From positions 2,705 to 66,704 of IMG/VR virus record IMGVR_UViG_3300033066_000811: a stretch of DNA of 64,000 bases; one strand, written 5' to 3'. Numbering within the stretch: position 1 is the stretch's first letter; every line of letters starts with the position of its first letter. A program made the position numbers and the translations under genes. Positions 57,910 through 59,245 of the stretch are shown piece after piece. Below the pieces are notes generated by a model, which saw only the letters and a list, made by a program, of their open reading frames with translations, ran no database searches and was not told the origin of the DNA. Origin of the DNA: a virus (lineage: Duplodnaviria; Caudoviricetes).

Positions 57910-57915
57910 GTCCAA

Positions 57916-57950
57916 AGACCTGTAGCTCAATTGGACAGAGCATTCGCCTT
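57916..57950 (+). tRNA. tRNA-Arg(UCU), 5' exon (positions 1-34)
   Basis: Acceptor AGACCTG, D-arm GCTC-AATTGGACA-GAGC with A20, anticodon stem TTCGC, loop CTT. Confidence 0.9.
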
Positions 57951-58558
57951 TAATTGAGGAGCGTTCAGTGTGGAAGATTGAGAAGATTGTTAAAAAGGGT
58001 GACTATTTGTATGCTATTGTGCGAAACCATCCAAATAGAACAAAAATGACTATGTGTTAATGCACAGAGTAGTCATGGAAAATCACCTAAAAAGACTTCT
58101 CAAGCCCTATGAGGTTGTTCACCATAAAAACAGGAATAAACATGACAATGCTATTAAAAACCTTGAAGTGTTGACTAAATCTGTTCATATACAGCAACAC
58201 GGACTTCAAGTTAAAAAGAAAATAGCAAAATGCAAATGTCCTGAATGTGGTGTTGTTTTTCTAAGAGCATACAATCAGACCCACTTGATTAAAAAAACAA
58301 AATACAATTTTGTTTGTTGTAGTAGGTCTTGTTCTGGAAAGTTCAAAAGAAAAATACAACTTCACGGATTAACCGCTGAAATGAAAGACACCGTATCGGT
58401 GAATATCCAAAGGGTTTACTACGGTAAGCTACCGGACAATACCGAGGAAACTTCAAACAAAAGGTTCCGTAGAGACTAAACGTGTCTCACCTGAAACGGT
58501 GGTGTTATAGTCCAGCACACAACACTTAATTGTGGTCATAGTAATATGATGTGTGAAG
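57951..58558 (+). mobile_element. group I self-splicing intron (608 nt) in the tRNA anticodon, between positions 34 and 35
   Basis: Exon ends in U with P1 CCUU/GAGG (U.G); P3 AGACAC/GTGTCT; P4 TCGGT/ACCGA; P7 GACTA 58474-58478/TAGTC 58508-58512; P8 CACC/GGTG; P9 CACAC/GTGTG; terminal G 58558. Confidence 0.88.
57968..58479 (+). CDS. intron-encoded HNH homing endonuclease with a -1 frameshift at about 58045
   Basis: GAGGAG RBS plus GTG 57968: WKIEK...KGDYLY...HPNRTK; then, in the -1 frame, NDYVLMHRVVMENHLKR...EVVHHKNRNKHDNAIKNLEV, CKCPEC, CCSRSC. Confidence 0.8.
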
Positions 58559-58597
58559 CTAAGCGAACGGTTCCGGGTTCGAGTCCCGGCAGGTCTA
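58559..58597 (+). tRNA. tRNA-Arg(UCU), 3' exon (positions 35-73; CCA not encoded)
   Basis: CTAA-GCGAA-CGGTT-CCGGG-TTCGAGT-CCCGG-CAGGTCT-A; pairs with the 5' exon acceptor and anticodon stems. Confidence 0.9.
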
Positions 58598-58630
58598 TTG
58601 TCCTTTAACCCTTTCTATGGAGTGTTTGGT

Positions 58631-59245
58631 ATGCAGATTTTTAACACAGAAGTTCTTCGTGACTGGGAAAATCTTCTTTCTTCTATGACAGAAAAAGAAA
58701 GAAAAATCATGATGAAAGCTATTGTTCAGGACGAAAAGAGAAGAACTGTCAAAAACCTTATTGGAGAAAATTCGTTGAGGGAATATACAGATATTGAAAC
58801 TGAAAAACCTCTTGTAGACATCCCTGCTTCTCCAATGAAACAGAATGAAGTCAAAAACAAAACTACTCTTCCAGAAAAAGATTATATAAGTGATGCAGAT
58901 AGTTACACTTGTTTAGGAGGATCAGTCACAGGATACACCAATTTCCCTCCAATTCCATATTTCCATGATGGGAAGTCTTCTTTCTCTGGAAACAAGTATT
59001 TTGTCAGGATTCATCCAAAAGCAGAGTCTATTCCGACTCCTGTGCCGAACAATCCCGACTTAAAGACCATTGGATACTTTGTGGATGCCTATATCATTGC
59101 AAAAGCATTAGGTATCATAAGTCATCCAGTTTTTCACGCATTCAAGAAAATTGCCTATGCTGGCAAGAGAGGAGGAAAAGGATACAGACAAGACATTCAA
59201 GAAGCGATTGATGCTCTCCAACGTGAACTCGAACTGACCAAGTAA
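58631..59245 (+). CDS. protein with C-terminal DUF3310-like domain
   Basis: VDAY...HAFKKIAYAGKRGGKGYRQDIQEAIDALQR. Confidence 0.6.
   Translation: MQIFNTEVLRDWENLLSSMTEKERKIMMKAIVQDEKRRTVKNLIGENSLREYTDIETEKPLVDIPASPMKQNEVKNKTTLPEKDYISDADSYTCLGGSVTGYTNFPPIPYFHDGKSSFSGNKYFVRIHPKAESIPTPVPNNPDLKTIGYFVDAYIIAKALGIISHPVFHAFKKIAYAGKRGGKGYRQDIQEAIDALQRELELTK

What the first reader, a model, noticed from the sequence alone, without database searches (positions are those of the whole stretch)
57951..58479. Intron HNH gene: RBS buried in P1, -1 frameshift, and ORF running through the ribozyme core
Seen: the GAGGAG RBS (57956-57961) overlaps the P1 guide strand, so translation and splicing compete. The N-terminal 26 codons join the HNH core only by a -1 shift at ACA AAA AAT (A5, 58042-58046). 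The ORF reads through P3-P6 and stops at the TAA in the P7 strand (AGAGACTAA). Known: endonuclease ORFs creeping into intron cores and RBS occlusion both occur in phage introns. Inference: layered throttling of a nuclease whose target would be an intact tRNA-Arg gene, potentially the host's; or early pseudogenisation after homing; or a homopolymer sequencing error.
Basis: partly seen in the sequence, partly recalled or inferred. Interest (0 to 1): 0.7.

Follow-up and report, generated by a model that had tools for sequence, protein, structure and literature searches.

The report
Frameshifted nuclease gene inside phage tRNA intron
A phage arginine-tRNA gene is split by a self-splicing intron whose homing-nuclease gene takes its start signals and its last 35 codons from the ribozyme's own helices; that layout is shared by a whole phage intron family, whereas the one-base frameshift is a real, recent lesion of this lineage and shows no sign of being a built-in recoding signal.

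Summary
All three observations hold. Joining 57950 to 58559 gives a canonical tRNA-Arg(UCU), so the intron is 57951-58558. Its P3-P9 core, with the P3/P7 pseudoknot, is backed by covariation in 23 related phage introns: 98% of cells pair and 28 of 45 pairs show compensatory changes.

GAGGAG (57956-61) holds the P1/P10 guide. The GTG start lies inside P2. The reading frame runs through P2', P3-P6 and stops in P7. All of this is family design: stops in relatives range from the L6 loop to P9b, and an ORF-less 193-nt relative keeps the same GGAGC and ATG-in-P2.

The frame break is a one-A deletion (A6 to A5) in an otherwise intact I-HmuI-like HNH_3 gene. Relatives are unbroken there, and five carry ACA AAA AAT/C. 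A second contig with flanking genes 69-86% identical carries a 99% identical intron with the same A5. So a one-off sequencing error is unlikely, and the broken allele has recently moved between phages. There is no slippery heptamer, no well-placed stimulator and no conservation of the shift. Two other family members carry different lesions.

Best reading: recent decay or attenuation of a homing endonuclease. Leaky rescue is not excluded. This scan has already noted phage tRNA introns with HNH genes on other DNA.

The parts
57916..57950 (+). tRNA-Arg(UCU) exon 1, ending C32-U33-U34
   Evidence: Splicing 57950|58559 gives a 74-nt ARAGORN tRNA-Arg(tct). The unspliced gene is missed by ARAGORN.
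57951..58558 (+). Group I intron, 608 nt, inserted between anticodon positions 34 and 35; last base is omega-G 58558
   Evidence: The G before CTAA is invariant in 23/23 aligned relatives.
57956..57961 (+). GAGGAG: Shine-Dalgarno sequence that is also the internal guide (P1 with exon CUU/CCUU; the preceding AG can pair exon 2 CU for P10)
   Evidence: GGAGC lies 4-6 nt before the start codon in all 23 family members and in the ORF-less relative L065.
57964..57970 (+). P2 5' strand TTCAGTG, containing the GTG start codon 57968-70
   Evidence: Pairs with CGCTGAA 58374-80. An equivalent 7-9 bp helix containing the start codon is found by duplex folding in about 21 of 23 relatives, with different sequences.
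57968..58060 (+). N-terminal fragment of the HNH gene (26 homologous codons, then MTMC and stop)
58042..58046 (+). A5 run: site of a one-base deletion relative to the family's ACA AAA AAT
   Evidence: The same A5 is in L061.
58058..58062 (+). TAATG: the stop of the N fragment overlaps an ATG in the HNH frame
   Evidence: Read. Possible reinitiation site; inference only.
58039..58479 (+). HNH frame (146 open codons), Pfam HNH_3, all family-conserved residues kept
   Evidence: (35.1 bits against a cutoff of 24.8).
58374..58380 (+). P2 3' strand, inside the coding region
58386..58391 (+). P3 5' strand (pairs with 58482-87), coding
   Evidence: helix 1: 5 of 6 pairs show compensatory changes.
58396..58445 (+). 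P4 (58396-401/58440-45) enclosing P5 (58406-08/58434-36) and a variable P5a, all coding
   Evidence: helices 2 and 3.
58446..58468 (+). P6/P6a hairpin, coding. In many relatives the stop codon lies in its loop.
   Evidence: helix 4.
58472..58478 (+). P7 5' strand with bulged A58473 and the invariant G58474-C58512 pair (G-binding site position). The stop TAA 58477-79 overlaps it.
   Evidence: helix 5.
58482..58513 (+). P3 3' strand, P8 hairpin (58488-501), J8/7, P7 3' strand (58508-13)
   Evidence: helices 1, 5, 6.
58516..58555 (+). P9 (58516-21/58550-55) with P9a and P9b (GTAA loop)
   Evidence: helices 7-9.
58559..58597 (+). tRNA-Arg(UCU) exon 2, starting C35-U36-A37-A38

Best explanation
The phage's only tRNA gene, tRNA-Arg(UCU), carries an IC3-like group I intron between U34 and C35. 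The intron's P2 loop holds an I-HmuI-like HNH_3 homing endonuclease gene. The gene is packed into the ribozyme. Its Shine-Dalgarno sequence is the internal guide (P1/P10). Its start codon is in the 5' strand of P2. Its last 35 or so codons are P2', P3, P4, P5, P6 and half of P7. A folded precursor therefore hides both initiation signals, and a translating ribosome must unfold the catalytic core, so expression and splicing exclude each other on any one RNA molecule (inferred from the structure, not tested). This packing is inherited family design. In this lineage the gene has also lost one A from an A6 run. The lesion is real and recent, it separates the N-terminal DNA-binding beta-hairpin from the catalytic core, and it most likely inactivates or strongly attenuates the nuclease, an early step of the usual decay of a fixed homing endonuclease gene. 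It is not a conserved programmed frameshift.
For: Intron: the spliced product is a canonical tRNA, and all 22 relatives also give tRNA-Arg(tct). Core covariation: 98.1% of cells paired, 28/45 pairs with both sides changed, 0/500 shuffles as high, slid controls about 35%. Packing is family-wide: GGAGC plus start-in-P2 in about 21-23 of 23, and the same GGAGC-CTTTATG-stem in the ORF-less 193-nt intron of LR756508. Stop positions are scattered from the L6 loop to P9b. Lesion: relatives of 158-170 aa are unbroken across ...TK|N(G/D/N)Y.... L009, L014, L020, L022 and L023 have A6 at the site. L061 has the same A5. Recency: all conserved residues are kept. Between window and L061 there are only 3 differences in the 383 nt of ORF outside ribozyme helices, against 49 of 245 in the flanking genes (Fisher p = 2e-18). 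Not programmed: the 0-frame reads ACA AAA ATG, so there is no X XXY YYZ heptamer. The only hairpin starts about 1 nt after the run and has z = -1.6. The shift is not conserved. Decay is common in the family: nonsense codon in L018, a different frameshift in L049. The N fragment matters: in the AlphaFold model of relative P0004 it forms two confident strands (13-17, 20-24; pLDDT above 90) next to the YVL strand, and the best fold match is I-HmuI.
Against: The broken allele is shared by two phages whose flanking genes are only 69-86% identical, while the intron is 99% identical. So the intron moved or swept after the deletion. That is easier if the nuclease still works at some level, although general recombination or a nuclease acting in trans would also do it. 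No second lesion has accumulated. tRNA-Lys can re-pair perfectly at A AAA in the -1 frame, so a low level of full-length product cannot be excluded. Rfam's Intron_gpI model does not score this intron.
Confidence: 0.6

Rival explanations
1. Leaky rescue. The A5 allele still makes a small amount of full-length nuclease by -1 slippage of tRNA-Lys on A AAA A. This low output, on top of the hidden RBS and start codon, is tolerated or even favoured and suffices for homing.
For: The -1 codon for the P-site tRNA-Lys is again AAA. The frame overlap is only 22 nt and contains the run. The ORF is otherwise perfect. The A5 intron is 99% identical in two phages whose flanks differ by 14-31%, a homing-like pattern with short co-converted flanks. 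Low-level 'saviour' frameshifting at indels is a documented class (abstract of PMC5009743, seen).
Against: There is no tandem slippery heptamer. There is no stimulator at the usual 5-9 nt spacing. The A-site codon ATG is not a known hungry codon. The shift is absent from all other relatives. Defunct phage intron nucleases can be mobilised in trans (PMC3984707; PMC2790892 title and abstract).
Confidence: 0.22
2. Sequencing or assembly error. The real genome has A6 and the gene is intact.
For: The break is a single base in a homopolymer. Nothing else in the gene is damaged.
Against: An independently assembled contig from another record (L061, JGI 3300020577) differs from the window at 57 positions over 966 nt (tally) and has the same A5. 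A 5/6-base homopolymer is not an error-prone length for short-read platforms (general knowledge; the platform is unknown here).
Confidence: 0.08
3. Split expression. Ribosomes finishing the 30-codon N fragment reinitiate at the overlapping TAATG (58058-62) and make a 139-aa N-truncated HNH protein, which acts alone or together with the N peptide.
For: TAATG stop/start overlap in the correct frame. The catalytic HNH motif and the Cys4 module lie wholly in the C fragment.
Against: The product would lack the nearly invariant (G/D)YV strand and the N-terminal hairpin, which pack together in the model. The TAATG is a by-product of the V-L-M codons and also occurs in the unbroken relative L047 (GTGTTAATGCAT).
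Confidence: 0.1

Closest known systems
[quoted passage not shown]
   Same: Same insertion point in the anticodon loop (after U34: CUU/...g/). Both have a short CUU/GAG-type P1, U-1 and omega-G, and a compact core with P2, P3-P9 and the P3/P7 pseudoknot.
   Different: The host gene is a phage tRNA-Arg(UCU), or tRNA-Lys(UUU) in LR756508. The intron carries an HNH gene in L2. It is not detected by Rfam Intron_gpI. The classical Arg intron is Arg.5Ug in tRNA-Arg(CCU), a different site.
I-HmuI, the HNH nicking endonuclease of the Bacillus phage SPO1 DNA polymerase intron (PDB 1u3e)
   Same: Best structural match of the family model (Foldseek probability 0.96, 115 columns, 23% identity) and a weak sequence hit. 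It too is an intron-encoded phage HNH with an N-terminal beta-sheet followed by the beta-beta-alpha-metal core.
   Different: Weak scores (E 0.011, TM about 0.29). Here a CPxC...CCSxxC module follows the HNH motif. The target would be a tRNA gene. The window copy is frameshifted.
Phage T4 introns: I-TevI (td) translational control and the defunct I-TevIII (nrdB)
   Same: RBS occlusion to delay nuclease synthesis (from my own knowledge of the td intron literature; not re-read here). A truncated HNH nuclease gene persists in a splicing-competent intron, and such introns can be mobilised in trans (PMC3984707; PMC2790892).
   Different: In T4 the ORFs sit in loops of introns in protein-coding genes. 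Here the SD is the guide sequence itself, the start codon is in P2, and the ORF reads through most of the core.
Group I introns whose endonuclease ORF overlaps core sequences (PMC3984707, Fig. 2b)
   Same: The ORF extends out of a loop into paired core elements.
   Different: The extent differs. In this family the overlap runs from P2' to at least P6 in every member and to P9b in some, so the non-coding intron is as little as about 100 nt of 608.
I-Ssp6803I in the cyanobacterial tRNA-fMet intron (Bonocora and Shub 2001, cited in PMC3984707)
   Same: A homing endonuclease encoded in a tRNA anticodon-loop group I intron, with the tRNA gene as target.
   Different: It is a PD-(D/E)XK enzyme, not HNH; it is bacterial, not phage; and the site is different (fMet.2Ug).

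Membership tests
Group I intron (IC3-like, tRNA anticodon-loop type) | Conserved core helices P3-P9 with the P3/P7 pseudoknot | tested here: met
   45 pairs in 9 helices, 98.1% paired, 28 pairs with compensatory changes; slid controls 35-39%.
Group I intron (IC3-like, tRNA anticodon-loop type) | U-1 in a G.U wobble with an internal guide; omega-G before the 3' splice site | tested here: met
   Exon CUU with the GAG of the invariant GGAGC (or CCUU/GAGG in the window). G58558 before CTAA is invariant in 23/23. Both sides are invariant, so there is no covariation test for P1.
Group I intron (IC3-like, tRNA anticodon-loop type) | Guanosine-binding G-C pair in P7 next to a bulged nucleotide | tested here: met
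   G58474-C58512 is GC in 23/23, with A58473 unpaired between G58472-C58513 and that pair.
Group I intron (IC3-like, tRNA anticodon-loop type) | Excision restores a functional host RNA | tested here: met
   In silico only: tRNA-Arg(tct) in the window and in 22 relatives.
Group I intron (IC3-like, tRNA anticodon-loop type) | Match to Rfam RF00028 Intron_gpI | tested here: not met
   No hit even at E up to 10 on 251 nt or on the whole record. The Rfam seed holds no bacterial introns (Williams 2020), so this failure carries little weight.
Group I intron (IC3-like, tRNA anticodon-loop type) | Self-splicing with guanosine and Mg2+ | not testable with these tools
   Needs an in vitro transcription and splicing assay.
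HNH_3 homing endonuclease (Pfam PF13392; I-HmuI-like) | HNH_3 domain above the curated cutoff, with catalytic His/Asn positions kept | tested here: met
   35.1 bits against 24.8. The HH...N...N and following H positions are conserved with relatives. PHROG HNH endonuclease families match.
HNH_3 homing endonuclease (Pfam PF13392; I-HmuI-like) | One uninterrupted reading frame | tested here: not met
   A5 in place of A6 splits it into 26 + 144 homologous codons.
HNH_3 homing endonuclease (Pfam PF13392; I-HmuI-like) | Site-specific cleavage of the intron-less allele | not testable with these tools
   No intron-less allele of this phage lineage was found.
Programmed -1 ribosomal frameshift | Slippery heptamer X XXY YYZ in the 0 frame | tested here: not met
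   The 0 frame reads ACA AAA ATG; only a single-tRNA slip on A AAA is possible.
Programmed -1 ribosomal frameshift | Stimulatory structure 5-9 nt downstream (or an upstream SD-like element) | tested here: not met
   The hairpin 58046-76 starts about 1 nt after the run; dG -12, z -1.6, and 16/200 shuffles fold as well. No SD-like element is seen upstream.
Programmed -1 ribosomal frameshift | Frameshift conserved among homologues | tested here: not met
   Only the near-identical L061 shares it. All other relatives are in one frame at this site.

The most novel reading that the evidence does not exclude
The A5 allele is a working, frameshift-attenuated homing endonuclease. Full-length enzyme made by rare tRNA-Lys slippage, from an mRNA whose SD and start codon are also locked in P1 and P2, is enough to drive the recent spread of this intron between phages whose neighbouring genes differ by 14-31%. 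That would be a natural example of a mobile intron stabilised by three stacked expression brakes.
Probability: 0.2. Interest if true: 0.65.

Novelty: new variant of a known kind. Interest (0 to 1): 0.5.

Why it matters
A 2014 review stated that all phage group I introns then known sit in protein-coding genes, despite the many phage tRNA genes (PMC3984707). I found no paper describing this tRNA-Arg(UCU) family. It is common in IMG/VR phages: 36 of the 54 loci fetched carry the intron.

Its layout is an unusually clean natural case of one RNA serving two incompatible roles. The guide sequence doubles as the Shine-Dalgarno sequence, a P2 strand holds the start codon, and up to the whole catalytic core is read as protein. 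The same positions show RNA covariation and amino-acid change together. That makes testable how a mobile intron in an untranslated host RNA balances splicing against nuclease synthesis, for example whether the excised intron is the mRNA.

The frameshift itself is probably ordinary decay. But the pair window/L061 offers a dated snapshot of a broken nuclease gene that has just moved between genomes.

Tried and rejected
- Rfam cmscan over 1101 nt and over 251 nt, and RF00028 over the whole record, gave no group I hit. The intron call therefore rests on my own helices plus covariation.
- ARAGORN does not see the split gene.
- Exact-pattern scans for the A5/A6 allele found nothing in viral contigs or in metagenome contigs.
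- A search for relatives of the upstream gene, to find an intron-less allele, found nothing.
- The first related-loci run with alignment A1 failed for lack of conserved columns. It was redone with A2.
- blastn of the region against GenBank phages gave only the core match in LR756508. tblastn with relative P0004 found only free-standing HNH genes at 44% identity or less.
- The genome-contig scan gave 3 hits, the best of them on a 95,989-nt contig of a binned MAG whose length equals that of the IMG/VR viral contig behind L025. So I dropped the idea that the family lives in bacterial tRNA genes.
- P1 registers in which GG pairs exon C31-C32 were rejected for the family, because they leave U34 unpaired or in a U-A pair in most members. 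The GAG/CUU register fits all members.
- A PDB profile search gave mostly zinc-finger noise, with I-HmuI only at E 0.24.
- Literature searches for phage tRNA group I introns found no description.

Full report
**What is in the sequence**

The window is an IMG/VR viral contig of 66.7 kb, 40% G+C, estimated 87% complete. At 57916-58597 lies a split tRNA gene that ARAGORN cannot see. Joining 57950 to 58559 gives a canonical 74-nt tRNA-Arg(tct). The insert is therefore 57951-58558 (608 nt), between U34 and C35, and it ends in a G.

- GAGGAG is at 57956-61 and GTG at 57968.
- There are 26 codons up to 58045, and the A5 run is at 58042-46.
- The second frame is open from 58039 to TAA 58477-79.
- The two frames overlap only in 58039-58060, so any join must happen there. 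Re-reading one A gives ...HPNRTK-NDYVLMH...

**It is a group I intron, shown by covariation and not by Rfam**

Rfam's Intron_gpI gave nothing on the region, on a 251-nt subregion at E up to 10, or on the whole record. The HNH protein has 77 relatives in metagenomes. Of the 54 IMG/VR loci fetched with it, 36 carry the same arrangement.

Splicing each of 22 distinct relatives at CTT|...G|CTAA gives tRNA-Arg(tct), with introns of 593-654 nt. I aligned the 3' 240 nt of 23 distinct introns (A3) and wrote down P3, P4, P5, P6/P6a, P7 (as a pseudoknot with P3), P8, P9, P9a and P9b from the window sequence.
- Across the alignment 98.1% of cells pair.
- 28 of 45 pairs have changes on both sides.
- No shuffle of 500 reaches any of the five measures.
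- Sliding the partners by 1-3 columns drops pairing to 35-39%.
- The G-C pair at the guanosine-site position of P7 and the omega-G are invariant.

The setting (CUU/...g/) is that of the classical tRNA-Leu(UAA) IC3 intron, 'Leu.3Ug' in Williams' nomenclature. The classical Arg intron is at another site, in tRNA-Arg(CCU).

**The translation signals are ribozyme helices**

Every member has GGAGC 4-6 nt before the start codon.
- The GAG of this motif pairs exon C32-U33-U34 with the canonical U.G wobble. This is a 3-bp P1.
- The preceding A-G can pair the first bases of exon 2 (P10).
- In the window the alternative GAGG/CCUU register is also possible.
- Either way the Shine-Dalgarno sequence and the guide are the same bases.

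Directly after it, a 7-9 bp helix forms between C-N4-(A/G)TG-TG and a complementary stretch about 15 nt before P3. The sequences differ from member to member, and the start codon always lies in this helix. In the window it is TTCAGTG 57964-70 with CGCTGAA 58374-80. This is P2, and the ORF fills its loop.

An uncultured 484-kb phage (LR756508) has a 193-nt ORF-less intron of the same family in a tRNA-Lys(UUU) gene at the same loop position. It has the same GGAGC, and a P2 hairpin that still contains the ATG, closed by a GAAA tetraloop. So the nuclease gene uses ribozyme elements as its SD and start codon. I cannot say which came first.

**ORF through the core**

In the window the frame reads through P2', P3 5', P4, P5/P5a, P4', P6 and into P7. 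In the family the stop falls at varied positions:
- in the L6 loop in 9 distinct loci;
- in the TAG of J6/7-P7 in 5;
- in P7/J7-3 in the window and L061;
- in P8, in P7' or in P9a in single lineages;
- 84 nt past P7, in P9b, in L015, L031 and L032.

The conserved C-terminal protein motifs (AISxNI, DNxEET) coincide with P4, P4' and P6. The variable x residues are the covarying P4 base pairs. Reading into the core is thus the family rule, and the window is a middling case. That some endonuclease ORFs overlap core sequences is textbook (PMC3984707, Fig. 2b), but this extent is unusual.

**The frameshift**

Relatives of 158-170 aa are continuous across the junction, and the two window fragments align to them end to end.
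- At the homologous site L009, L020, L022 and L023 read ACA AAA AAT and L014 reads ACA AAA AAC. The window is therefore one A short of an A6 run.
- A 1052-nt contig from JGI sample 3300020577 (L061) encodes the identical C fragment and has the same A5.
- Between window and L061 the flanking genes are 85.7% and 69% identical. Exon 1 is identical, exon 2 differs at one base, and the intron has 6 differences in 608 nt.
- The 383 nt of ORF outside any ribozyme helix has 3 differences (one Ile/Val, two synonymous), against 49 of 245 in the flanks. Fisher p = 2e-18.

From this I conclude the following. The A5 is real DNA, not a one-off error. The two intron copies share a far more recent ancestor than their host genomes, so the already broken intron moved or swept recently.

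Nothing marks the site as a programmed shift:
- there is no X XXY YYZ heptamer;
- the only hairpin starts about 1 nt after the run and is not exceptional (z -1.6);
- the shift is not conserved.

Independent lesions occur elsewhere in the family: a nonsense codon in L018 relative to L015, and another frameshift in a G4A3 run in L049.

The N fragment's stop overlaps an in-frame ATG (TAATG, 58058-62). Reinitiation could therefore give a 139-aa protein, but it would lack the nearly invariant (G/D)YV strand.

**The protein**

It is Pfam HNH_3 and matches PHROG HNH families. An AlphaFold model of relative P0004 has mean pLDDT 83. It places the residues that correspond to the window's N fragment in two confident strands next to the YVL strand and the first helix. 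These are followed by the beta-beta-alpha core, a Cys4 ribbon and C-terminal helices. The best PDB match is the intron-encoded nicking enzyme I-HmuI (probability 0.96, E 0.011). Cutting off the first 26-35 residues should therefore remove a DNA-contacting element (inference by analogy with I-HmuI).

**Mechanism and odds**

Shown:
- the intron, its helices and the dual use of bases;
- the one-base deletion;
- its presence in two diverged genomes;
- the absence of frameshift signals.

Inferred:
- P1 and P2 hide the SD and start codon in the folded precursor;
- translation and core folding exclude each other;
- the excised intron, with its guide freed, is the better mRNA;
- the nuclease targets intron-less tRNA-Arg(UCU) genes.

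I put about 0.6 on recent inactivation or attenuation by an ordinary deletion, about 0.2 on functionally relevant leaky slippage, about 0.1 on reinitiation giving a truncated protein, and under 0.1 on sequencing error. The recent spread of the broken allele is the one observation that favours residual activity. General recombination or a nuclease supplied in trans (PMC3984707; PMC2790892) are the alternatives.

**Novelty**

The components are known kinds: an IC3-type tRNA intron, an HNH homing endonuclease, RBS occlusion, ORF/core overlap and endonuclease decay. What is new relative to the literature I could search is a widespread phage family in tRNA-Arg(UCU), with a relative in tRNA-Lys(UUU), that has this degree of overlap. 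In genome contigs the family gave only 3 hits among 185,579 species genomes, one of them apparently a phage contig. Earlier notes of this scan list other phage tRNA introns with HNH genes on other DNA, so the general theme is recurrent in this scan. A companion note covers the intron itself on this same stretch.

**Limits**

No reads were available. There is no expression or splicing evidence. The host is unknown. P1 and P10 cannot be tested by covariation because both sides are invariant. Table 1 of the Williams preprint is an image, so I could not check whether an Arg(UCU) 3Ug class is already listed there.

Noticed in passing
L065 (LR756508.1:11490-12967), intron at L065:627-819: An uncultured 484-kb phage has a 193-nt ORF-less intron of the same family in a tRNA-Lys(UUU) gene, at the same 34/35 position. 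Its P2 hairpin keeps the ATG, which heads a 6-codon mini-ORF. It could be the ancestral empty intron or a precise loss of the nuclease gene.
   Followed up: partly
L026, L030, L036, L038, L041, L047, L050 (IMG/VR loci): Relatives of the same HNH protein stand free between phage tRNA genes rather than inside an intron. This nuclease lineage is tied to tRNA gene clusters in both life styles.
   Followed up: no
L002:4171-4267 (also L003): ARAGORN calls a 97-nt tRNA with a four-base anticodon (acaa) in the tRNA cluster next to the homologous intron. It could be a frameshift-suppressor-like tRNA, a long-variable-arm tRNA or a miscall.
   Followed up: no
L015-L018 and L021, about 40-60 nt upstream of the tRNA: A poly-C tract of 9 to 12 C varies in length between otherwise near-identical contigs, just upstream of the intron-bearing tRNA. 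This is either homopolymer assembly noise or a variable tract.
   Followed up: no
window 1-64000: The split tRNA-Arg(UCU) is the only tRNA gene recognisable in the window (ARAGORN finds none unspliced). An automatic annotation would report this phage as tRNA-free and call a 134-aa orphan HNH gene (P0001).
   Followed up: partly
window 57910-58631 against L061: The near-identical tract shared with the diverged phage starts within a few bases of the tRNA 5' end and ends at the start codon of the next gene. The unit exchanged is the whole tRNA-plus-intron cassette with about 33 nt of downstream spacer.
   Followed up: yes
A3 columns 41-46/91-96 (window 58396-401/58440-45): The variable residues of the protein motifs AISxNI and DNxEET are encoded by the two covarying base pairs of P4. 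The apparent co-variation of two amino-acid positions is therefore driven by RNA pairing.
   Followed up: partly
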